Positions 3,357-62,813 of a DNA stretch of 64,000 bases are shown piece after piece. The notes beneath the pieces are model-generated. The model saw only the letters and a list, made by a program, of their open reading frames with translations. It searched no databases and was not told where the DNA came from. The stretch is from Escherichia phage ECD7: sequence record NC_041936.1; one strand, given 5' to 3'. Numbering within the stretch: position 1 is the stretch's first letter; each line of letters begins with the position of its first letter. Made by a program: the position numbers and the translations under genes.

Positions 3357-3509
3357 ATGAGTAAGAAAGAAAACAGCTATGTTATGACTCGTAAGGAATA
3401 CAACGAATTGATGTTAGCATTAGCTTATGCAATTATTCGTTCTGATCATGCAATTAATCTGGTAAACAAAGTTAACCGTAGCGTTGATAATGTTTCTAGG
3501 AAGAAGTAA
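3357..3509 (+). CDS. small hypothetical protein (50 aa)
   Basis: ATG preceded by AAGGAGG RBS; below the ORF-track size cutoff; followed by a terminator. Confidence 0.35.
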   Translation: MSKKENSYVMTRKEYNELMLALAYAIIRSDHAINLVNKVNRSVDNVSRKK

Positions 3510-3518
3510 GTTTATTTT

Positions 3519-3548
3519 GGAATCCTTCGGATTCCTTTTTCTTTTTTT
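3519..3548 (+). terminator. rho-independent terminator
   Basis: GGAATCC-TTCG-GGATTCC hairpin followed by a T-run. Confidence 0.55.
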
Positions 3549-3549
3549 G

Positions 3550-3557
3550 TATAAATA
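3550..3557 (+). promoter_or_regulatory. T4-type late promoter TATAAATA upstream of gene 24
   Basis: exact TATAAATA 38 nt upstream of the ATG at 3595. Confidence 0.55.
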
Positions 3558-3594
3558 TGATATATCCATTAAGGCAAATACAGGATTCATAAAC

Positions 3595-4836
3595 ATGACT
3601 CATATTTTTACTGAACTGTTGCGGGAATCTACTTCCTCAGTAGCTAACCAGACAGCGCGACCGCAACTATTATCATTAACTCGCGCGGTAAACAACCTGA
3701 TTTTCTCTGATCTGGTAGCAATCCAGCCAACGGATCAACCAGTATCTGCATTGTACGGCCTACGTTATCTTAATCGTGATGGTCAGATGACTTTCCGAAC
3801 TGCTGCGACCTACGGTGGCGCGGCTGGTGATCGCACAGAGATTGAAGAGTTTTCAAAAGAAAAATCTTATGACGAAGGCGCACTGTTCAAATCAGGCGAT
3901 GTTGTATACGAAGTTGTGACCGCTGGTACAGTCGGTGAAGATGCCGAAACTCCAGAATCTGCAATCTTTAAAGGCGTAATGACAAACAAAATTCGTTTCT
4001 ATAGCGATTGTGCATCGGTAGAATACTTTGAAGATAAAAACACCGAAATTTCGTCTACCTCTATGCAGTTTGATAAATGGCAGGTTAATGTAGGTTCCCG
4101 TAAACTGAAAACCTCGTTCACCACTGAATTAATGCAGGATCTTGAGGCAAGCCAAATCAACTCTGAAAACTCTGTAATTGATCTTCTGGCTACTGTTGCT
4201 TCCGAAGAGATCAACAAAGATATTATTCAGAAGTTGATCACTGTATCATCTCGCTATAAAATTAAAGGGATCACCCCTGATGGCGTACTTTCTCTCGTTA
4301 GCGTTCAGGATGCACCAACACAAGCGCGTGAACTTTACCGCTATGCTTGCGAGATGAGCAATCAAATGTTGCGGACTTCCTCCTTTGCTGGTACATACGT
4401 TTTGGCGTCTTCTCGCGTGGTTGGCCTCCTGCAATCTACCGGATGGATGGAAGAAACCGACAATGCTCTAAGCGAAGGTCGTCTACGTTGCGGTCTGGAA
4501 GTGTACGCAGACACGACAACACCTTTCGATTATATGCTCGTTGGTTGTAAGCACATGATCGGTGATATGGAGAGTGTAGGTTCTTTGTTCTACTCCCCAT
4601 ATACAGAAGCCGACGGCGCTGGCGCGTATAAGAGTGTAATTGACCCTAATAGCTTCCAGCATCATGTAGCTATTATGAATCGTTATTCACTCTCTGTCAA
4701 CCCATACACATCAAAAGTTGATCAGGAAGAACACCAGGTCATCAAGGGTGACGATTGGGGTAAAATGGCTGGACGTTCAGAAATGTCCTACATTTTAGGA
4801 ATCGAACTGCCACCGCTTGAGATTGACAACGCTTAA
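3595..4836 (+). CDS. 24: capsid vertex protein gp24
   Basis: 413 aa from Met at 3595; colinear with recalled T4 gp24 (ELLRES..., GITPDG, FYSPYTE, ANPYT); the track ORF begins upstream at 3484. Confidence 0.9.
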   Translation: MTHIFTELLRESTSSVANQTARPQLLSLTRAVNNLIFSDLVAIQPTDQPVSALYGLRYLNRDGQMTFRTAATYGGAAGDRTEIEEFSKEKSYDEGALFKSGDVVYEVVTAGTVGEDAETPESAIFKGVMTNKIRFYSDCASVEYFEDKNTEISSTSMQFDKWQVNVGSRKLKTSFTTELMQDLEASQINSENSVIDLLATVASEEINKDIIQKLITVSSRYKIKGITPDGVLSLVSVQDAPTQARELYRYACEMSNQMLRTSSFAGTYVLASSRVVGLLQSTGWMEETDNALSEGRLRCGLEVYADTTTPFDYMLVGCKHMIGDMESVGSLFYSPYTEADGAGAYKSVIDPNSFQHHVAIMNRYSLSVNPYTSKVDQEEHQVIKGDDWGKMAGRSEMSYILGIELPPLEIDNA

Positions 4837-5424
4837 CTAAATATCTAACCAAGACAAGTCAGATCCGCCCAAGATTTTTTCGACGGCGGATCTATTTTCT
4901 TGATGATATAAGTTAAAACATGGTATCCCATGTCTACGGGCAACATAAACAGCAATTCGAGTTCCTCCCGAAACGATTCCATTAACTTCTTTCGCCCAAA
5001 ATATCACACAATCTACAGGGTCATCAAGTGTCTCACCTAAGACTTGAGCAACATTTCTAGAAAACAGATTTTGCATGTATAACGGTATAGAACGAGGATT
5101 ATCATAAACGTGTTCTAATTCATCCATCGCCAGATTTTTTTGTTCTAAGGTTTGCCATGCAATCACATCATGACCGTTATGCTTGTGGTCATAAAACTTC
5201 CAATTTGGAATGAAAATTTTTCTATAATCTGGATCGTAATACTTCATGAAAGCATTGTCCATACCGTAAGCCCCTCCAGAATGCGCTACAACGCGATTTT
5301 CTGACAATACCCTCCCAATGGTACTAGCCATTATCAAAATGTCGCTAGGCGCTTTTCTAGAGCCGATTAAAGCACATCTACGAAGTGGTTTTACTCCAAA
5401 TAGATCTTGTAACTGGTCAAACAT
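4837..5424 (-). CDS. DprA/Smf-like (SLOG Rossmann-fold) protein
   Basis: 195 aa; IGSRKAPS...VAHSGGAYGMDNA and later SRNVAQVLG...VSGGTRIAVYVARRHG resemble the DprA Rossmann domain; occupies the T4 rnlB slot. Confidence 0.5.
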   Translation of the reverse strand: MFDQLQDLFGVKPLRRCALIGSRKAPSDILIMASTIGRVLSENRVVAHSGGAYGMDNAFMKYYDPDYRKIFIPNWKFYDHKHNGHDVIAWQTLEQKNLAMDELEHVYDNPRSIPLYMQNLFSRNVAQVLGETLDDPVDCVIFWAKEVNGIVSGGTRIAVYVARRHGIPCFNLYHQENRSAVEKILGGSDLSWLDI

Positions 5425-5576
5425 AATATTTCCTCCATAGAAAGCAATATCATACTACAAGTTAATAACAAATACAAGTATCCGCGTAGCGGAAGCGAGC
5501 ACAGCGAGCAATAAAACACTTCCAGTAATTGATTAATAAATGTTCGAAACAAATTTTTATTATTCTATAAGATAAG

Positions 5577-5602
5577 TCTTCGTTTTGATCATAATTTAAT
5601 CA
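5577..5602. repeat. direct repeat copy 1 (TCTTCGTTTTGATCATAATTTAATCA)
   Basis: identical 26-mer recurs at 5726-5751 in a ~410 bp ORF-free AT-rich interval. Confidence 0.8.
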
Positions 5603-5725
5603 TACATGTAAAAACTACACAAAAGGATATCGCTTCGCGAACTCCTACGGAGTATAACATTTGTGTTACAATATGTAGTGATTAATAATTAACCAAAGAT
5701 ACATTTTCTATGTTCTAAAGATCTT

Positions 5726-5751
5726 TCTTCGTTTTGATCATAATTTAATCA
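5726..5751. repeat. direct repeat copy 2 (TCTTCGTTTTGATCATAATTTAATCA)
   Basis: identical to 5577-5602; flanking bases also similar. Confidence 0.8.
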
Positions 5752-5804
5752 AACAGTATTAATATTGTGCACATGTAAACTAAAATTATGTTAATAACAG
5801 ATAC

Positions 5805-5828
5805 AAAAAAGCCGCCCCAAAGGACGGC
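5805..5828 (-). terminator. rho-independent terminator (minus strand)
   Basis: GC hairpin GCCGCCCC..GGACGGC with A-run on plus (U-run on minus), just downstream of the 5838-6275 gene. Confidence 0.55.
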
Positions 5829-5837
5829 TAATGTTAA

Positions 5838-6275
5838 TTATTTGTTGATAACGATCTGATTTCGGCGAATGGTAACATTACTCTTAGAGATGATCAGATC
5901 ATCCGGCACTACGTTAGTTTTGTATGGTTGGAAGCGAACAAGCATCTGATTGCGTTTAGACCCTTCCTTAATCTTGATTTCCATCTGGATATTGTTGCCT
6001 ACGTGAGCAACCGCAATTTCACCTTTATTCTCATAGACCCACTTGCTGGTAACGTCTCCAGCAAAAGCCTTAATAACTTGCAATGCTTCGTCGTATGCGG
6101 TAGAGCTGTGAACTTTCAGAAGGCCAGCCGTAGCAAGACGTGAGCAGGTGATCGCCGGAGATTGCCAAACATCAACATTAATTTGCTCAATCAGAGTAAC
6201 ACCGCCCTGATCAACTGCTTTGAATGCTTCGAACATTGCCTTTTTCATTGCTACGTGGTTTTTACGGAATTTCAT
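5838..6275 (-). CDS. hypothetical protein (145 aa)
   Basis: ORF followed by a terminator; no recognisable motif. Confidence 0.5.
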   Translation of the reverse strand: MKFRKNHVAMKKAMFEAFKAVDQGGVTLIEQINVDVWQSPAITCSRLATAGLLKVHSSTAYDEALQVIKAFAGDVTSKWVYENKGEIAVAHVGNNIQMEIKIKEGSKRNQMLVRFQPYKTNVVPDDLIISKSNVTIRRNQIVINK

Positions 6276-6321: not shown

Positions 6322-6597
6322 TCAGGACATTGCCCGTTTGAATGCGTCCATTATAACAGTGTTATTTGGCATGTCAACACGTTTTTGAACTTTATTTTTA
6401 AATTTTTTGTTGATGTGGTGTTTACGATAAACAACCTTTTCACGGTTGGCGTAAGCCTCGCGTGCGTCTTTTACCATCAACCATGCCTTAGCCGCATCTT
6501 GTCCGCTGATCCCGCCAATCTTCTTAGCAATATCAACAAAATTAAGACCGTGGTCTTCGCGTAGCATGTAAACCATTAACGCTGTTTTCTTGTCCAT
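6322..6597 (-). CDS. hypothetical protein (91 aa), start chosen at internal Met
   Basis: ATG overlaps the stop of the upstream gene (TGATG coupling); the track ORF extends further 5'. Confidence 0.4.
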   Translation of the reverse strand: MDKKTALMVYMLREDHGLNFVDIAKKIGGISGQDAAKAWLMVKDAREAYANREKVVYRKHHINKKFKNKVQKRVDMPNNTVIMDAFKRAMS

Positions 6598-9345: not shown

Positions 9346-10848
9346 ATGCAAGATATTAAAATTCACTTTCTGAACTATTCCCATGTTCAAATTGAATGTA
9401 GCGATTCAATTTTATTAGAAATGCGAGATTATTTTAGTTTTGAAGTCGAGGGAGCGCGGTTTCAAAAAAGATTTAAGTATGGTGGATGGGATGGGCGTAT
9501 TCGTCTTTTAGATTACAACGGAAAGCTGCCAATCGGCCTAACTAAAACCGTGGGAATCTTCGCTAAAAATATGGGCTATAGCGTATGGGTAGATCCTCGC
9601 TTATTCGAAAAAGAACAAGTTACAGAAGAAGAAATTACAAAATGGTGTAATGACTTAGAATTATATTCCGGTGCTAACAGGATCACCCCGCATTGGTATC
9701 AATCAAAGGCTGTCTTTGAAGGTATTCATCATAAACGCCGTATGTTAGTTTTGCCTACGTCCGCTGGTAAATCTGCGATTGCTTGTATGTTGTCTCGCTG
9801 GTACTTAGAGAACTACGAAGGGAAAGTGTTGATCATCGTTCCTACCACGTCGCTAGTGCTGCAAATGCGTGATGATTTTGTTGATTATCGCCAGTTTCCT
9901 TATGAAGCAATTCATACTATCATGAGCGGTACTAGTAAACACGTAGGTGATCGCCTGATCGTTGTTAGTACGTGGCAATCTGCATGTAAACAACCTCGTG
10001 AGTGGTTCCAGCAATTTGGGATGGTTATTGTTGACGAATGTCACAAAGCCACTGCTAAAAACCTGCTAAACATCGTTACTGATATGGATCATTGCCAATT
10101 TAAGATCGGCATGACTGGTTCCCCTCGTGACGGGAAAGCTAACATGATGCAGTATGTCGGGCTTTTCGGTGACATTTCCAAGATCGTGAGTATTGACCGC
10201 CTGATGGAAGAAGGCCAGGTGACAAAACTGAAAATTAACTGTCTTTTCCTTCGTTATACCGATGAGGAATGTAGCGCGGTTAAGGGTAGAGAATATGCGG
10301 AAGAGATCAAGTATATTACGTCTAACCCACGACGTAATAAGTTTGCTTGTAATTTGGCGCTAAAACTCGCTAAGAAGGGCGAAAACGTATTCCTGATGTT
10401 CCGCAATACTAAGCACGGAAAACTTATGTATGACGCGTTACAGAAGGTACACGACAAGGTTTATTATATTGACGGTGGAGTTAAGACAGAAGAACGTGAT
10501 GAATTTAAGAAATTAGCGGAAGGGGAAACCGGGATCATTTGTGTTGCGTCTTATGGTGTGTTCTCTACTGGTGTTTCAATTAAGAATTTGCACCATGTTA
10601 TTTTCGGTCATCCAGTGAAGGAATCAACTATCGTTCGTCAGAGTATCGGTCGTGCATTGCGTAAACATGGTTCGAAAGACATTGCAACGGTCTGGGATCT
10701 TATAGATCATCTGGCGGTGAAGACAAAGAGCAAGAATGCTAAGAAACAGTTTAGTCACCTTAATTATGCTCTTAAACATGCCCTTGAAAGAATAAAAATT
10801 TACAACACCGACCGATTCGAATATGTCACGAAAACCATCGAGATTTAA
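9346..10848 (+). CDS. uvsW: UvsW DNA/RNA helicase (SF2)
   Basis: 500 aa from ATG at 9346 (the track ORF starts at an upstream GTG); N-terminus DIKIHFLNYSHVQIEC...GWDGRIRLLDY and Walker A PTSAGKS match recalled T4 UvsW. Confidence 0.9.
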   Translation: MQDIKIHFLNYSHVQIECSDSILLEMRDYFSFEVEGARFQKRFKYGGWDGRIRLLDYNGKLPIGLTKTVGIFAKNMGYSVWVDPRLFEKEQVTEEEITKWCNDLELYSGANRITPHWYQSKAVFEGIHHKRRMLVLPTSAGKSAIACMLSRWYLENYEGKVLIIVPTTSLVLQMRDDFVDYRQFPYEAIHTIMSGTSKHVGDRLIVVSTWQSACKQPREWFQQFGMVIVDECHKATAKNLLNIVTDMDHCQFKIGMTGSPRDGKANMMQYVGLFGDISKIVSIDRLMEEGQVTKLKINCLFLRYTDEECSAVKGREYAEEIKYITSNPRRNKFACNLALKLAKKGENVFLMFRNTKHGKLMYDALQKVHDKVYYIDGGVKTEERDEFKKLAEGETGIICVASYGVFSTGVSIKNLHHVIFGHPVKESTIVRQSIGRALRKHGSKDIATVWDLIDHLAVKTKSKNAKKQFSHLNYALKHALERIKIYNTDRFEYVTKTIEI

Positions 10849-55608: not shown

Positions 55609-55619
55609 CATTTTTAACA

Positions 55620-55650
55620 AGCCGATCCTCGTGGTCGGCTTTATTTTTAT
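55620..55650 (+). terminator. rho-independent terminator after gene 35
   Basis: GCCGATC..GGTCGGC hairpin followed by a T-run. Confidence 0.6.
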
Positions 55651-55769
55651 ACAGTTGGTTAAATTATAACCAAAACGAAGAAAGATCTTTAGAATATAGA
55701 AAAGTTTGTTTCGGTTAAAAATTAGTCAGTGCCTACGGCACGTCGCGAAGCGATATTTTGTTAACATTC

Positions 55770-55777
55770 TATAAATA
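55770..55777 (+). promoter_or_regulatory. T4-type late promoter TATAAATA upstream of gene 36
   Basis: exact TATAAATA 34 nt upstream of the ATG. Confidence 0.55.
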
Positions 55778-57371: not shown

Positions 57372-60314
57372 ATGGCAGATTTAAGCAGAATCCAATTTAA
57401 ACGCACTAGCACTAAAGGTCGTAAACCTGATGCTAGTACGATGAATCCGGGGGAATTGGCAATCAACCTTGCGGATCAATATCTTCTTACTAAAAATGAT
57501 TCCGGTGCTATTATCAATTTAAGTTGTCCTCCGGTGTATGACCGCGATGTTACAATGGCGGGTAAGGTTAAAGGTAATAATTATATCTTAAGTAAAACCG
57601 CCAACTATTTGGAAGACCAGACAGCGAGAGATCTTAACTACTTTGGCGCTTTCTGTACCAATGGTCTTGATGGTCTTCTCGAACTCACGCTAAACGTTCC
57701 TCACTCTTCCGGTGTCCAACATGGTCGAGGATTTACTTTCCAGTATGGGCACACTGGATCGCGCGTAGAAACTTATGGATATAATGCACAAGGACAAAAA
57801 GCATTTAGCTATAAAATGTATCACGAAGGTGATAAACCAACTCCAGGAGAATTGAACGTTTATAGCAAACAAGAAGTTGACCGTATGTTTGTTAAAACCG
57901 TTAAACTTGCTACAGTTCCTGTTGATATAGTTGACGGTTATTTTAAATTAGCGACTGCGATGATTCCGCAAAACGGTCGTAGCGTATTTTTCCGTATTCA
58001 TGGTGGTAACGGATATAACGTTACTGCATACGATCAAGTTGATATTGTAGAAATTGTTATTCGCAGTGGAAATAATCGTCCTAAAGGTGTTAACGTTATT
58101 GCATACCGCCGAAATACAAACAAAGCATTTGATGTTTTGGCTGTTAATACTTCTGGTGATAACTATGATATCTACGTGAAATATCAGCGTTACACTGATA
58201 ACGTTATTGTTGAATTTGGTAAAAGTGTTGATGTTGATCTGGTAGTCCATGACGTTCCAGATTTTGTTGTTGATCGTCCTGTTGGCGATAATGTTATTGG
58301 CGGTCGCGCGGTAACTCTTTTCAACACCGAAAACAAACGAGGTGTGTTGAGTTTTGACGACAACACACAAAATAGTTATGATATTGTTCACTTGAGTAAT
58401 GATAGGGGTACTGGACGGAAATATATTCGTAAATTCCGTAGCAACTATAACGAAATGATCTGGCATGAGACGGTTCAAGGTTCTACTTATCGACTCGCCA
58501 CGGGTAGTACAGATGCCCAGGAGATTCTATCCGTTGAATCTAGTAGCTCTATTGCTGGGACTCATAAAGGTAATATTCTTTCTGGTCGAATGATGTTGGG
58601 TGGCGGTAGTAATGTTATTACCTTGCGGCGTCCTGCTGGTCAATCCAACCATATTACGTTTCAAGATAATCGGACTGGATCTATTACCCGTCAAGGGTGG
58701 ATCGGTTATGGTAATGCTGATACTAACGTTTTTGAATGGTATAGTGATGTAGGTGGTACTTCTATTCGTCACCACATCGACGGACAGATCGAACTTGCAA
58801 CCGGTAACACAAAACGAGTTTATACTAACGCTCAATTCATCTCAATGAATAGCAACGCCTACCGTATGCTATACGGTAATTATGGTGCATTCTGGCGTAA
58901 TGACGGCGTTAAAGTTTATCTTCTTTCTACTGCCGAAAATGATAAATTGGGTGGATGGAATAGCTATCGTCCATTCATTTATGATTTAACTTCCGGTAAC
59001 GTTCAATTAGGCGGTGATGGTAACGAAGATGCATTAACGTTAGAACTTGCTTCTCGTGCCGCTCGCTTTAGTAATGACGTTTACATTAAGAAAGGGCATT
59101 TGACTTTCGACGCTGGGCGCTCTGGATCTCGCGATTACTTCCGGTTTAACCATTGGGGTGATAGCAATAATGCCCGTGATAACATTCTATATCTAGAAGA
59201 CAGTAAAGGTCGACATTTTAGCACCGAGCGTAATATGGCAACGGGTGCATTAAAAGCCGACTTCTTAGGCGATCTTGAAGTTGGTGGTAAGTTGACATGG
59301 GGTAAAAATACAGCTACATCTAGCTTTAATATTCGTGCATGGGGTAGTGATTCTCGTAAGCAAGTATTAGAATGCGCGGATGAAAGTGGTTGGCATTGGT
59401 ATACCCAACGTGCTGGCGGTCCAGGTACTGAATTAATCGATTTTGCCATTAATGGTACTGTTAAGCCTAAAGCAATTCACACTGGCGGTAATATTACCCT
59501 GAACGGTCCTGATATTGAGTTTAAACGCGCTGGCAATAAGCACATCTGGTTTAGAGATCCAGACGGTTTAGAGTTAGGCTTGATGTACTGCGATGATGCT
59601 GGTGCTATTCGATTCCGTGGTCAGAAACAAGCCCAAGCGTGGAAATTTGCAGATAAAATGATCCAGTTGGAATCTGGTACTGTAACCGGTGGCGGTAATG
59701 GCCTGATTCGTGGTGAAGTTGCTGGCGGTAGTTGGGCTAGCTGGCGTGACCGTGCTGCTGGCCTTATGGTTGGGTGTCCTCAATCCACCAACTCGGCACA
59801 TAACGTATGGAAAGCGACGCATTGGGGTAAATATCACATTGCAGCAATGGCTGTACATGTTCCTGATGGTACTATTACCAATGCTTTAGCTCGCCTAAAC
59901 GTTCATGACGCCAACTTTGACTTTAGCGCATCCGGTGACTTGTCGGCAGGTCGTAACGGTTCGTTTAACGATGTGTATATTCGTTCTGATGCTCGCCTTA
60001 AAATCAATAAGGAAGAGTATAAGGAGAATGCCACCGATAAAGTTAATCGCTTGACGGTATACACCTATGACAAGGTTAAATCTTTAACCGACCGTACTGT
60101 CATTGCTCATGAAGTTGGTATTATTGCTCAGGATCTTGAAAAAGAATTGCCGGAAGCCGTAACAACTTCTAAGATCGGCGACCCAGATAATCCAGAAGAG
60201 ATCTTAACAATTTCTAACTCTGCTGTCAACGCTCTTTTAATTAAGGCGTTTCAGGAAATGAGCAAAGAATTGAAAGCCGTTAAAGCTGAACTAGCAGAAC
60301 TTAAAAAGAATTAA
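57372..60314 (+). CDS. 37: long tail fibre distal subunit gp37 with C-terminal intramolecular chaperone domain
   Basis: 980 aa; N-terminal MADL and fibre repeat motifs; C-terminal domain begins at SDARLK. Confidence 0.75.
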   Translation: MADLSRIQFKRTSTKGRKPDASTMNPGELAINLADQYLLTKNDSGAIINLSCPPVYDRDVTMAGKVKGNNYILSKTANYLEDQTARDLNYFGAFCTNGLDGLLELTLNVPHSSGVQHGRGFTFQYGHTGSRVETYGYNAQGQKAFSYKMYHEGDKPTPGELNVYSKQEVDRMFVKTVKLATVPVDIVDGYFKLATAMIPQNGRSVFFRIHGGNGYNVTAYDQVDIVEIVIRSGNNRPKGVNVIAYRRNTNKAFDVLAVNTSGDNYDIYVKYQRYTDNVIVEFGKSVDVDLVVHDVPDFVVDRPVGDNVIGGRAVTLFNTENKRGVLSFDDNTQNSYDIVHLSNDRGTGRKYIRKFRSNYNEMIWHETVQGSTYRLATGSTDAQEILSVESSSSIAGTHKGNILSGRMMLGGGSNVITLRRPAGQSNHITFQDNRTGSITRQGWIGYGNADTNVFEWYSDVGGTSIRHHIDGQIELATGNTKRVYTNAQFISMNSNAYRMLYGNYGAFWRNDGVKVYLLSTAENDKLGGWNSYRPFIYDLTSGNVQLGGDGNEDALTLELASRAARFSNDVYIKKGHLTFDAGRSGSRDYFRFNHWGDSNNARDNILYLEDSKGRHFSTERNMATGALKADFLGDLEVGGKLTWGKNTATSSFNIRAWGSDSRKQVLECADESGWHWYTQRAGGPGTELIDFAINGTVKPKAIHTGGNITLNGPDIEFKRAGNKHIWFRDPDGLELGLMYCDDAGAIRFRGQKQAQAWKFADKMIQLESGTVTGGGNGLIRGEVAGGSWASWRDRAAGLMVGCPQSTNSAHNVWKATHWGKYHIAAMAVHVPDGTITNALARLNVHDANFDFSASGDLSAGRNGSFNDVYIRSDARLKINKEEYKENATDKVNRLTVYTYDKVKSLTDRTVIAHEVGIIAQDLEKELPEAVTTSKIGDPDNPEEILTISNSAVNALLIKAFQEMSKELKAVKAELAELKKN
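59985..60311 (+). other. intramolecular chaperone (peptidase S74-like) autoproteolytic domain at the gp37 C-terminus
   Basis: SDARLKINKE ... VGIIAQDLEKELPEAV ... LLIKAFQEM ... coiled-coil tail; pattern recalled from endosialidase/T5 fibre chaperone domains. Confidence 0.6.
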
Positions 60315-62246: not shown

Positions 62247-62611
62247 TTAACAAACATTTTCTTTAATGCTTTCAGGATCGTTGCTTCCGGCGCTTCTTCC
62301 GGTGGAGGAAGCAATTCTACCACTTCCTCTTCCAACTCGATATAGTCTACCAGATATTCTACATAGAATGCAAGTGCTTCCATGAAATTAAATGCTACAT
62401 CCGATTCACCACAAGCGCCTACATGCATTGTATAAACATCACTGCGATCAAGTTTGTGGATGCTTCCCAGATAGTTTCGGTTATACCAGACTTCCCACAC
62501 TTTCAGCTTTCCGGTTTTGGTTGCTGTTTTATAATCGGTTTCGTAATGATGCAATTGACGTTGCAAATCATTGATAATAACACATTTTTCGTAATTGTTT
62601 TGAATTTCCAT
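62243..62611 (-). CDS. hypothetical protein (122 aa)
   Basis: ORF in the coupled minus-strand array. Confidence 0.45.
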   Translation of the reverse strand: MEIQNNYEKCVIINDLQRQLHHYETDYKTATKTGKLKVWEVWYNRNYLGSIHKLDRSDVYTMHVGACGESDVAFNFMEALAFYVEYLVDYIELEEEVVELLPPPEEAPEATILKALKKMFVK

Positions 62612-62621
62612 GATGTAATCC

Positions 62622-62813
62622 TCACTTATCGTTAAGAAGTTCTAAAACTTTCTGTCGTACTTTGTCAATATTAGTTGATTCAAAAACTGTACGGTATCCC
62701 CAGCTTTGACCGTATGAGCGGTTGCAATCTCCATATCCCCATTGTTCAACCTGGTAGTATTCAAGGAATGGATGCTGCCGAACTATGATACCATCGCGAT
62801 TAAAAATTACCAT
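62622..62813 (-). CDS. small hypothetical protein (63 aa)
   Basis: ORF in the minus-strand array. Confidence 0.4.
   Translation of the reverse strand: MVIFNRDGIIVRQHPFLEYYQVEQWGYGDCNRSYGQSWGYRTVFESTNIDKVRQKVLELLNDK

What the first reader, a model, noticed from the sequence alone, without database searches (positions are those of the whole stretch)
5425..5837. ORF-free AT-rich interval with two pairs of direct repeats
A ~410 bp interval between the DprA-like gene and the 5838-6275 gene has no ORF of note. It contains an exact 26 bp direct repeat (5577-5602 and 5726-5751) and a second imperfect repeat GTTAATAACA(A/G)ATACAA (about 5455 and 5790). No tRNA-like structure was recognised. Candidate roles are a regulatory region, a small RNA, a replication origin-like element, or the scar of a lost mobile element.
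Basis: seen in the sequence. Interest (0 to 1): 0.45.

Follow-up and report, generated by a model that had tools for sequence, protein, structure and literature searches.

The report
Conserved hairpin repeat family in Krischvirus
The gap between two genes of this T4-like coliphage is not empty spacer: it holds a terminator, two tandem copies of a conserved hairpin-forming non-coding element found four times per genome (and once in an E. coli prophage), and the next gene's promoter, but the element's function is still unproven.

Summary
The window is a Krischvirus (RB49/Phi1 group). Read on the minus strand, 5425-5837 contains the terminator of the upstream gene, two tandem diverged copies (149-nt period) of a ~125-nt non-coding unit, then a sigma70-like promoter, SD and start of the DprA-like gene. 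The 26-nt repeat is the 5' arm of a long AT-rich hairpin in each unit. The 17-nt repeat brackets the tandem pair.

The unit occurs four times per Krischvirus genome (also upstream of g3 and between g35 and g36, window 55652-55754), always pointing the same way as the gene downstream. A homologue sits in an E. coli prophage beside an iteron array. Uncultured relatives (flanking protein 50-87% identical) keep the same locus plan. Hairpin arms change sequence but stay complementary (89.7% of cells paired versus 21-47% in controls; 22/22 small-hairpin pairs kept, 3 compensatory).

It matches no Rfam family or tRNA, has no conserved ORF, and is not a PeSL.

Best reading (about 0.4): a small hairpin-terminated non-coding RNA cassette. 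Rivals are a DNA-level palindromic repeat (origin, enhancer or protein site) and a passively spread repeat. Transcription, strand and function are unshown.

The parts
5810..5829 (-). Intrinsic terminator of the upstream gene (5838-6275): AGCCGTCC-TTTG-GGGCGGCT followed by TTTTTTG
   Evidence: 8 pairs, 6 GC, T tail. Annotated as a terminator in GEC-3S and G37-3. The orthologue in L295 keeps it through a compensatory G-C to A-T change.
5790..5806 (-). Left copy of the 17-nt repeat (TTGTATCTGTTATTAAC), directly after the terminator; left bracket of the tandem pair
5630..5755 (-). Repeat unit K2. Long AT-rich hairpin 5751-5679: box TGATTAA 5751-5745, box TGATCA 5740-5735, CAAAACGAAGA, TAGAAC 5717-5712, box TTAATCA 5685-5679. 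Then a linker, hairpin ACTCC-GTA-GGAGT (5653-5641) and hairpin TCGC-GAA-GCGA (5640-5630), followed by a T-rich tail.
   Evidence: Covariance model R1 hit at 5677-5755, 75 bits. Folds. Hairpin covariation against L295.
5726..5751 (-). It forms the 5' arm of the long hairpin.
5481..5606 (-). Repeat unit K1. Long hairpin 5602-5530: TGATTAA 5602-5596, TGATCA 5591-5586, TAGAAT 5567-5562, TTAATCA 5536-5530. Then the conserved block GCTCGCTGTGCTCGC (5509-5495) and the terminator-like hairpin TCCGC-TAC-GCGGA (5493-5481) with tail TACTTGTATTTG.
   Evidence: R1 hit at 5528-5606, 70 bits. Terminator-like site. L295 has TCGGC-GTA-GCCGA at the aligned place, a compensatory change.
5577..5602 (-).
5449..5477 (-). 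Sigma70-like promoter of the DprA-like gene: TTGTAT (5477-5472), 17 nt, TATGAT (5454-5449). The right copy of the 17-nt repeat (5477-5461) supplies its -35 and half of the spacer.
   Evidence: Read from the sequence. It scores 8/12, below the scan's threshold, but is conserved as TTGTTT-17-TATGAT in L295, and TTGATT-17-TATAGT occupies the same place in L300.
5422..5436 (-). SD GGAGG (5436-5432) and ATG (5424-5422) of the DprA-like gene 4837-5424
55652..55754 (+). Third copy in the window (K3), between g35 and g36. Long hairpin 55656-55728: TGGTTAA, TAACCA 55667-55672, TAGAAT 55690-55695, TTAGTCA 55722-55728. Then hairpins GTGCC-TAC-GGCAC (55729-55741) and (G)TCGC-GAA-GCGA(T) (55742-55754). Preceded by the g35 terminator (55619-55641) and followed by the late promoter TATAAATA (55770-55777).
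   Evidence: R1 hit of 89 bits. Terminator-like sites. Gene names from Phi1.

Best explanation
SHOWN. The interval is a conserved non-coding control region. On the minus strand it consists of (1) the intrinsic terminator of the upstream gene, (2) two tandem diverged copies of a ~125-150-nt unit, and (3) the sigma70-like promoter, SD and start codon of the DprA-like gene. Each unit has a conserved box TGRTTAAA, a box TNNNCA followed by AAA(A)CG, and a 70-85-nt AT-rich imperfect palindrome closed by TGRTTAA/TTARTCA. The unit ends in one or two 4-7-bp G+C hairpins with 3-nt loops and a T-rich tail. The unit belongs to a family with four co-oriented copies per Krischvirus genome. Related units occupy the same locus in more distant relatives, and one copy lies in an E. 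coli prophage. INFERRED (about 0.4). The unit works as RNA in the gene-sense orientation, as a compact non-coding cassette between one gene's terminator and the next gene's promoter. Either a weak host-type promoter inside the palindrome drives a ~55-95-nt RNA that ends at the G+C hairpins, or read-through transcripts fold into the long hairpin plus terminal hairpins, which would stop or insulate transcription and shape RNA stability. The candidate internal promoter is the TNNNCA box, 16-18 nt, then TAKAAT in the apical region. The 26-nt repeat is the 5' arm of the long hairpin in both units. The 17-nt repeat is the tail and -35 region that follows a hairpin at each end of the tandem pair.
For: Family and conservation: three copies in the window and four in Phi1 at 70-89 bits, with nothing else above noise. 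Nearly all of the 57 Krischvirus records hold four places. The interval is 95-100% identical in all 57. Syntenic gaps of 326-575 nt with a terminator, 2-3 tandem units and a promoter occur in L295, L299, L300, L302 and L303, where the DprA-like protein is 87-50% identical. Structure: an unguided RNAalifold run on 12 units from 6 lineages returns the long hairpin, 17 pairs, 6 of them with compensatory double changes. On that alignment 89.7% of cells are paired, against 21-47% when partners are slid; 22 cells have double changes against 9.9 +/- 2.5 in shuffles (0/500). The long hairpin is the minimum-free-energy fold in 12 of 16 units, with z-scores down to -6.6. In the structure-blind alignment of the window against L295, all 22 stem pairs of the four G+C hairpins stay paired, 3 through compensatory double changes, none breaks, and the three loops that differ from GAA all change. 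RNA and sense-strand indications: the last hairpin of K1, K3, K4, L295-B, L300-B and L302-B is a terminator-like site in the unit's own orientation, in regions where shuffles give 0.1-0.6 sites. All copies point the same way as the downstream gene. At paired columns G.U outnumbers A.C by 43:11 and 22:4. Internal promoter: TAKAAT with T1, A2 and T6 lies 16-18 nt after the TNNNCA box in 10 of 16 units (read), and L303-A passes the scan at 10/12. This sequence is conserved although it sits in the unpaired apical region. Non-coding status: no conserved ORF, no tRNA, no Rfam family.
Against: No transcript data exist. No promoter upstream of or inside the Krischvirus copies passes the sigma70 scan. 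Promoter-like hits in these AT-rich gaps are no more frequent than in shuffles, and they also occur on the antisense strand using the same boxes. K2 has TAGAAC, which lacks the critical final T. The palindrome folds about as well on the antisense strand, and the G.U excess is partly biased because the structures were derived on the sense strand. Several terminal hairpins are short (4-5 bp) and some lack a T run (K4, prophage). In L295 the interior of the palindrome is replaced and the outer helix is not kept column for column. The boxes TGRTTAAA and TTAATCA keep their sequence across lineages, which suggests recognition by a protein rather than pairing alone. K3 and K2 lie just downstream of strong terminators, so read-through RNA would be scarce.
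Confidence: 0.4

Rival explanations
1. DNA-level element. The units are dispersed, tandemly repeated AT-rich palindromes flanked by inverted boxes (TGRTTAA ... TTARTCA). A phage or host protein recognises them, or they extrude as hairpins or cruciforms. They would serve as replication origins or unwinding elements, transcriptional enhancers, or recombination hot spots, comparable in layout to baculovirus hr regions or to the T4 'promoter plus DNA-unwinding element' origins.
For: The box sequences are conserved across lineages in which the rest of the unit has changed. There are 1-3 tandem units at three dispersed loci. GC is 27-32%. The palindrome folds equally well on both strands. The prophage homologue lies ~350 nt from at least 7 AGTGTAGGTTT iterons and an AT-rich stretch. 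The motif GCGAAGC forms an unusually stable DNA mini-hairpin (own knowledge, Hirao et al.). The three Krischvirus loci lie within a few kb of the positions of T4 oriE, oriF and oriG (own knowledge; a post-hoc observation and weak).
Against: There are no origin or protein-binding data. No replication initiator gene was recognised beside the prophage iterons. The inner arms differ between lineages but stay complementary, which points to pairing rather than a shared protein-recognition sequence. The T-rich tails and the strict co-orientation with transcription have no role in this model. G.U exceeds A.C.
Confidence: 0.28
2. Passive or selfish repeat. The unit would be a PeSL-like or MITE-like cassette (an AT-rich palindrome plus terminator hairpins) that spread by recombination or mini-circle insertion and persists as a linker for modular shuffling. 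In this view its only working parts are back-up terminators and neighbouring promoters.
For: The copies lie in unrelated intergenic sites and in an unrelated prophage of the same host. The same prophage region shares a gene with Phi1 at 94.8% DNA identity, which shows recent exchange. A 17-nt direct repeat brackets the K2+K1 pair. In one Krischvirus contig a different gene starts immediately after K4's last hairpin. Tandem units resemble each other more than they resemble their orthologues, indicating concerted evolution. PeSLs are documented recombination linkers in this phage group (PMC2839356).
Against: All four copies are fixed at the same sites in nearly all 57 genomes. The locus architecture survives to 50% identity of the flanking protein. 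The palindrome arms and the unpaired apical TAKAAT are maintained by selection. No target-site duplication is seen at K3 or K4, and there is no transposase.
Confidence: 0.17
3. The units are promoter cassettes that fire on the opposite strand. On the antisense strand the TNNNCA box reads TTGATC, TTGGTT or TTGACC (a better -35), and a -10-like hexamer lies just beyond box a, with the 5' hairpin in the spacer, as in a PeSL subclass.
For: The scan flags such antisense sites in L295-B (TTGATT-16-TATAAT, 10/12), L299-A (TTGATG-17-TATAAT, 10/12), L300-A and L302. At K4 the antisense TTGGTT-17-TATATT points at the divergent ORF130.
Against: The hits are not enriched over shuffles. In the window's own copies the -10 candidates lack the final T (TATTAA, TATAAA). 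At K2 and K3 such transcripts would only run antisense into the 3' end of the upstream gene. The model does not explain the distal G+C hairpins.
Confidence: 0.08
4. The interval hides a small protein-coding gene, or the repeats are chance features of AT-rich spacer.
For: Some GenBank records annotate 32- or 53-aa ORFs here.
Against: The ORF has no counterpart in L295. Alignments contain indels that are not multiples of three. The short ATG ORF in the 26-mer is lost in K3 and K4. Both repeats have a chance expectation of 0.00.
Confidence: 0.02

Closest known systems
PeSL (promoter-early stem-loop) cassettes of RB49/phi1 (Arbiol et al. 2010, PMC2839356; Comeau et al. 2014, PMC4122927)
   Same: Same phage group. 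Both are repeated intergenic motifs that combine an AT-rich tract, stem-loops and promoters, and both lie at gene boundaries in plastic regions. The proximal part of the interval (hairpin 5493-5481, TTGTAT-17-TATGAT, SD, ATG) resembles the PeSL subclass with the stem-loop upstream of the -35. Bracketing direct repeats fit insertion by recombination.
   Different: PeSLs are short cassettes, ~50 per genome, with a near-perfect TTGACA-N17-TATAAT and a G(n)-loop-C(n) stem. The unit here is 105-150 nt with four copies per genome and has no consensus promoter. It carries a 70-85-nt AT-rich palindrome and triloop hairpins, and two of its copies precede late promoters. Neither PeSL paper mentions it.
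Intergenic palindromic repeats that act in RNA: ERIC/IRU, REP/BIME, Neisseria Correia elements (own knowledge)
   Same: These are ~100-150-nt non-coding imperfect palindromes found in several copies in transcribed intergenic regions. Structure is conserved more than sequence, and they can carry promoters or affect mRNA processing.
   Different: There is no sequence similarity. The copy number is very low. The element occurs in phage genomes. It is asymmetric (a palindrome plus distal G+C hairpins) and is always co-oriented with transcription. No terminal target duplications are seen at K3 or K4.
Small hairpin-terminated bacterial or phage sRNA genes
   Same: The placement is terminator of the upstream gene, then the element, then the promoter of the downstream gene. 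The unit has a -35/-10-like pair, a U-rich 5' segment, terminal hairpins and a T tail.
   Different: The promoter is weak and unproven, the terminal stems are short, and no transcript is known. A review (PMC3014915) states that no trans-acting sRNA had been functionally characterised in T4-type phages.
Baculovirus hr regions and T4 oriF/oriG-type origins (own knowledge)
   Same: Tandem units, each with an imperfect palindrome, are repeated at several dispersed loci. They are AT-rich and lie next to promoters.
   Different: There is no homology, no origin or enhancer data, and no MotA-type middle promoter (RB49 lacks that mode). The inner arms co-vary rather than keeping a protein-binding sequence.
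d(GCGAAGC) mini-hairpin (own knowledge, Hirao et al.)
   Same: The exact heptamer lies in hairpin HpB of K2, K3, L295-A and prophage type P2. GAA triloops closed by C-G recur in the family.
   Different: It is a structural motif, not a functional family. K4 has an AAA loop, and other copies have GTA, TAC or TTC loops.

Membership tests
PeSL (RB49/phi1) | Near-perfect sigma70 promoter TTGACA-N17-TATAAT | tested here: not met
   No site in or upstream of K1, K2, K3 or K4 passes the scan. The best internal candidates have 3/6 in the -35. The ORF164 promoter scores 8/12.
PeSL (RB49/phi1) | Stem-loop of the G(n)-loop-C(n) type within or next to the promoter | tested here: inconclusive
   The ORF165 terminator (GGGGCGGC) is of this kind. 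The unit's own hairpins are mixed-sequence 4-7-bp stems with triloops.
PeSL (RB49/phi1) | Short cassette ending in the SD and start codon of an ORFan, ~50 copies per genome | tested here: not met
   There are four copies of 105-150 nt per genome. K2 is followed by K1, not by a gene. K3 and K4 precede late structural genes.
Any Rfam 15 family | Covariance-model score at or above the gathering threshold | tested here: not met
   The best hit scores 24 bits against 95 and is driven by the terminator.
tRNA / tmRNA | ARAGORN detection | tested here: not met
   none in the 64-kb window.
Independent sRNA gene | Own promoter | tested here: inconclusive
   A TNNNCA box, 16-18 nt, then TAKAAT occurs in 10 of 16 units. 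Only L303-A passes the scan, and hits are not enriched over shuffles.
Independent sRNA gene | Intrinsic terminator at the 3' end | tested here: met
   Terminator-like hairpin in the sense orientation at the end of K1, K3, K4, L295-B, L300-B and L302-B. These are weak (5-8 bp). K2 and the prophage copy are not flagged.
Independent sRNA gene | Detectable transcript | not testable with these tools
   No expression data are available, and the literature search found none.
Structured RNA or single-strand element | Base pairs maintained by compensatory change | tested here: met
   Only about 7 independent lineages were available, and the strand is unresolved.
MITE / IS-derived element | Terminal inverted repeats plus target-site duplication; presence/absence polymorphism | tested here: inconclusive
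   The inverted boxes a and a' exist. A 17-nt direct repeat flanks K2+K1 only. There is no duplication at K3 or K4, and no empty site among the 57 genomes.
T4-type origin (promoter + DNA-unwinding element) or iteron origin | Origin activity; initiator binding sites | not testable with these tools
   Only circumstantial: AT-richness, and iterons near the prophage copy. The Krischvirus copies contain no iterons.
Type III toxin-antitoxin (ToxI-like) RNA repeats | Tandem ~35-45-nt repeats next to an endoribonuclease toxin gene | tested here: not met
   The period is 125-170 nt, and no toxin gene is adjacent.

The most novel reading that the evidence does not exclude
The units encode, or act as, a small structured RNA (or an RNA/DNA decoy) shared between virulent Krischvirus phages and a temperate E. 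coli prophage, where it heads the non-coding control region beside an iteron array. The virulent phage would carry four copies to interfere with, or exploit, the replication or regulation machinery of the prophage or the host. That would make it the first trans-acting non-coding RNA family in T4-type phages and a case of phage-phage conflict mediated by RNA.
Probability: 0.07. Interest if true: 0.8.

Novelty: new variant of a known kind. Interest (0 to 1): 0.5.

Why it matters
T4-type phages are among the best-studied viruses, yet no trans-acting small RNA or riboswitch has been functionally characterised in them (PMC3014915). Origins of replication are also unknown for the RB49 group, which lacks the middle-promoter origins of T4. 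This work defines a conserved non-coding family with clear evidence of selection on its structure. It sits at fixed gene boundaries, one copy immediately ahead of a canonical late promoter (g36) and one ahead of a late-promoter-like AATAAATA (g3). It is unannotated in every Krischvirus record I inspected, apart from terminator features and spurious small ORFs. It gives a concrete, small target of four loci for RNA-seq, deletion and origin-mapping experiments. Its presence in an E. coli prophage, together with a gene shared at 95% identity, also documents exchange of non-coding modules between virulent and temperate coliphages. If it proves to be only a terminator or linker cassette, it still extends the PeSL picture of how T4-type genomes shuffle modules.

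Tried and rejected
- **Known RNA families.** Rfam with permissive thresholds on all three contexts gave only terminator-driven noise. ARAGORN found nothing.
- **Coding potential.** Small ORFs are not conserved. The 8-10-aa ORF that starts inside the 26-mer loses its ATG in K3 and K4.
- **PeSL membership.** The defining promoter and stem type are not met.
- **Promoter upstream of the unit.** TTTACA is 15 nt from TACTGT in K2, and the spacing of the conserved TTTAC and ATACTG motifs differs between the window and L295. Rejected.
- **Late promoter inside the units.** None is present; TATAAATA lies downstream of K3.
- **Long hairpin within the Krischvirus and prophage set alone.** RNAalifold did not recover it, and it is not kept column for column in L295. 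It became convincing only with the additional lineages.
- **Strand assignment from folding energy.** Inconclusive.
- **Motifs read by eye and dismissed.** A dif/XerD-like 9-mer (TTATGTTAA) near 5790, a near-LexA box upstream of K4, a resemblance of TGATCA to the P1 pac hexamers, and IHF and DnaA boxes. Each is a single weak match in AT-rich DNA or is absent from K3 and K4.
- **Wasted scans.** A 16-base pattern scan of bacterial genomes, and most hits of a looser viral scan, were chance matches; the covariance model rejected them.
- **Co-transferred genes next to the prophage copy.** None, apart from the LprI-family gene 4 kb away.
- **Function of the prophage's neighbouring genes.** Pfam and PHROGs found only an Ant/Rha-like regulator.
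- **Other genera.** In RB43 and Morganella phage vB_Mm5 the DprA-like gene abuts an RNA-ligase gene with no gap.

Full report
**What the window is.** The 1.5 kb around the finding is 95-99.9% identical to 57 Krischvirus records (RB49, Phi1, JSE, GEC-3S and others). The interval itself is 95.2-100% identical in all 57 and 100% identical to Phi1 98765-99177. Both flanking genes are on the minus strand: a DprA-like gene (4837-5424, Phi1 ORF164) and a hypothetical gene (5838-6275, ORF165). They lie in the g24-hoc region. The interval therefore has to be read on the minus strand.

**Check of the observation.**
- The exact 26-mer (5577-5602 / 5726-5751) and the 17-mer with one mismatch (5461-5477 / 5790-5806) are real, each with a chance expectation of 0.00.
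- The 26-mer is the core of a 38-nt, 89%-identical pair. A further 10-mer pair has the same 149-nt spacing, so this is a tandem duplication.
- GC is 29.8% against 40.7% for the window.
- There is no tRNA and no Rfam family.
- The only ORFs are a 53-aa TTG ORF and two 23-aa ORFs. Some records annotate the 53-aa ORF or a 32-aa piece of it. It crosses the hairpin, promoter and SD, and has no counterpart in a relative.

**Anatomy, minus strand.**
- Terminator 5829-5810 with a T run.
- 17-mer copy 1 (5806-5790).
- Unit K2 (5755-5630).
- Unit K1 (5606-5481), ending in a terminator-like hairpin (5493-5481).
- 17-mer copy 2 (5477-5461), which supplies the -35 (TTGTAT) of a TTGTAT-17-TATGAT promoter.
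- SD GGAGG, then ATG at 5424.

The 17-mer therefore brackets the two-unit block. Both copies directly follow a hairpin.

**A dispersed family.**
- BLAST and a covariance model find a third copy in the window at 55652-55754 on the plus strand. It lies between the g35 terminator and the late promoter TATAAATA of g36.
- The whole Phi1 genome has exactly four copies. The fourth is upstream of g3, in the divergent gap between g3 and ORF130.
- Nearly all 57 records show four places.
- All copies point the same way as the gene downstream.
- Paralogue identities over the long-hairpin segment are 63-91%.

**A homologue in a prophage.** About 25 IMG/VR contigs and 58 of 5,426 complete E. coli chromosomes carry a 75-120-nt homologue, 75-82% identical by BLAST. 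No other cultured phage and no plasmid carries it. In E. coli it belongs to a ~35-kb prophage inserted in hicB. There it opens a 1.2-kb unannotated ORF-free region that also holds further triloop mini-hairpins, at least 7 AGTGTAGGTTT iterons and an AT-rich stretch. The same prophage region shares an LprI-family gene with Phi1 ORF262 at 94.8% DNA identity, so the two phage types have exchanged DNA.

**Orthologous loci in more distant relatives.** Relatives of the DprA-like protein at 87, 70, 59, 57 and 50% identity lie on contigs L295, L299, L302, L300 and L303. These contigs show the same gene order and a 326-575-nt gap of 27-32% GC. Wherever the whole gap is held, it contains a terminator, 2-3 tandem units (period 125-170 nt) and a promoter-like site; the L302 contig ends inside the gap. 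In other genera (RB43, Morganella phage vB_Mm5) the DprA-like gene abuts an RNA-ligase gene with no gap. The element is therefore specific to the Krischvirus-related clade, plus the prophage.

**Structure of the unit.**
- Each unit starts with the box TGRTTAAA, followed by TNNNCA and AAA(A)CG.
- A 70-85-nt AT-rich imperfect palindrome follows. Its outer helix is TGRTTAA/TTARTCA. Its inner arms differ between lineages but stay complementary: CAAAACGAAG with UUUGUUUCG or UCUUUCUUUUG; AUCAAACGUCAU with AUGACGUUUGAU; UACGUUUUCUCUAUA with UAUAGAAAAAACGUA.
- Within Krischvirus plus prophage alone the support was modest: 79% of cells paired against 32-52% in slid controls, and RNAalifold did not recover the hairpin.
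- With 12 units from 6 lineages, unguided RNAalifold returns it, 17 pairs with 6 compensatory. On that alignment 89.7% of cells are paired against 21-47% in slid controls, and 22 cells have double changes against 9.9 +/- 2.5 in shuffles, 0/500.
- The long hairpin is the minimum-free-energy fold in 12 of 16 units. A competing local hairpin (box a with the TNNNCA box) also shows one compensatory pair.
- The small distal G+C hairpins are the firmest feature. In the structure-blind alignment of the window against L295, which BLAST puts at about 65-69% identity, 22/22 stem pairs are kept, 3 of them through double changes, none breaks, and the loops change. Between paralogues whole stems are replaced while the 4-7-bp stem and 3-nt loop geometry is kept.
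- L295 is an exception: the interior of its palindrome is replaced by two small hairpins, and the outer helix is not kept column for column.

**RNA or DNA, and which strand.** This is not settled.
- For sense-strand RNA: every copy is co-oriented with transcription. Terminal hairpins with T-rich tails score as terminator-like in the sense direction in six units, where shuffles give 0.1-0.6 sites. G.U exceeds A.C at paired columns by 43:11 and 22:4, a count partly biased by how the structures were derived.
- For a DNA-level role: both strands fold about equally well. The box sequences are conserved beyond what pairing requires. The prophage copy lies near iterons.

**Promoters.** No sigma70 site passes the scan in or upstream of the Krischvirus copies. 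In the relatives' AT-rich gaps, hits are at chance frequency and fall on both strands. Even so, the unpaired apical region keeps TAKAAT 16-18 nt after the TNNNCA box in 10 of 16 units, and L303-A (TTGAAC-17-TATAAT) passes the scan. That would give ~55-95-nt RNAs made of the 3' arm, the linker and the G+C hairpins. K2 has TAGAAC and would be defective. An antisense promoter reading (TTGATC or TTGGTT as the -35) is also possible, and at K4 it would serve ORF130.

**Comparison with what is known.** PeSLs, the repeated promoter-stem-loop cassettes described for RB49 and phi1, are defined by near-consensus promoters and G(n)-loop-C(n) stems, with ~50 copies per genome. The unit meets none of these features, and neither paper mentions it. 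Only the proximal hairpin, promoter and SD resemble a PeSL subclass. The closest analogues in layout are intergenic palindromic repeats that act in RNA (ERIC, Correia elements), small hairpin-terminated sRNA genes, and dispersed tandem palindromes such as baculovirus hr regions; these comparisons rest on my own knowledge. A T4 review notes that no trans-acting sRNA or riboswitch has been functionally characterised in this phage family.

**Verdict.** It is a conserved, structured, four-copy non-coding family, unannotated apart from terminator features and spurious small ORFs in every record I inspected. My best reading is a compact hairpin-terminated non-coding RNA cassette (about 0.4). A DNA-level palindromic element is next (about 0.28), then a passively spread repeat (about 0.17). 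Transcription, strand and function remain to be shown.

Noticed in passing
L036 9317-10535 (= L200 8917-10192, E. coli O55:H7 DEC5A prophage in hicB): A 1.2-kb ORF-free, unannotated region in a ~35-kb prophage. It contains the element homologue, a run of triloop mini-hairpins (9630-9735), at least 7 AGTGTAGGTTT iterons (9860-9985), an AT-rich stretch and a near-consensus promoter TTGACA-17-TATACT (10180-10208) overlapped by the inverted repeat TTGACAACTGTCAA. It looks like an origin or control hub of an uncharacterised phage type.
   Followed up: partly
L200 13355-13739 versus Phi1 158312-158696 (ORF262): An LprI-family (lysozyme-inhibitor) gene at the edge of the same E. coli prophage is 94.8% identical in DNA to part of Krischvirus ORF262. 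This indicates recent gene exchange between a temperate and a virulent coliphage.
   Followed up: no
window 6350-6377 (minus strand): A perfect sigma70 promoter (TTGACA-16-TATAAT, 12/12, preceded by TG) lies upstream of the 5838-6275 gene. It is a canonical PeSL-type early promoter and contrasts with the weak sites inside the repeat units.
   Followed up: no
L007 (IMG/VR Krischvirus contig), just downstream of the K4 copy: The sequence diverges from Phi1 immediately after the last hairpin of K4 (after GCGACAATTG), and a different gene start follows instead of g3. The element's 3' edge therefore coincides with a recombination junction.
   Followed up: no
L036 7392-7415 versus Phi1 58420-58443: A 24-nt exact match between the prophage (just downstream of its Ant/Rha-like gene) and a 279-nt intergenic gap of Phi1 (between ORF117 and ORF118). 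It may be another shared non-coding module or terminator.
   Followed up: no
Phi1 62590-62640 (L004 12590-12640), antisense to the K4 copy: On the strand of the divergent gene ORF130, the K4 5' hairpin reads TTGGTT-17-TATATT about 45 nt upstream of the ORF130 start. The element may double as that gene's promoter.
   Followed up: partly
L304 (Morganella phage vB_Mm5) and L305 (RB43): In other T4-like genera the DprA-like (YspA/SLOG-type) gene overlaps the end of an RNA-ligase gene. In the Krischvirus clade the upstream neighbour is instead the ORF165-like gene followed by the repeat-bearing gap.
   Followed up: partly
window 5495-5509 (minus strand): The direct repeat GCTCGC-TGT-GCTCGC in K1 is conserved in L295-B (GCTCGCTTTGCTCGC), with related forms in L299 (GCTCGCTTCGCTCAC) and in L300 and L302 (GCTCACTGCGTTCGC). 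It is not explained by any of the hairpins.
   Followed up: no
window 3484-4836 (plus strand): The mechanical ORF for the gp24 vertex protein starts at a TTG (450 aa), whereas GenBank records annotate a 1242-nt gene. The true start is probably an internal ATG about 110 nt downstream.
   Followed up: no
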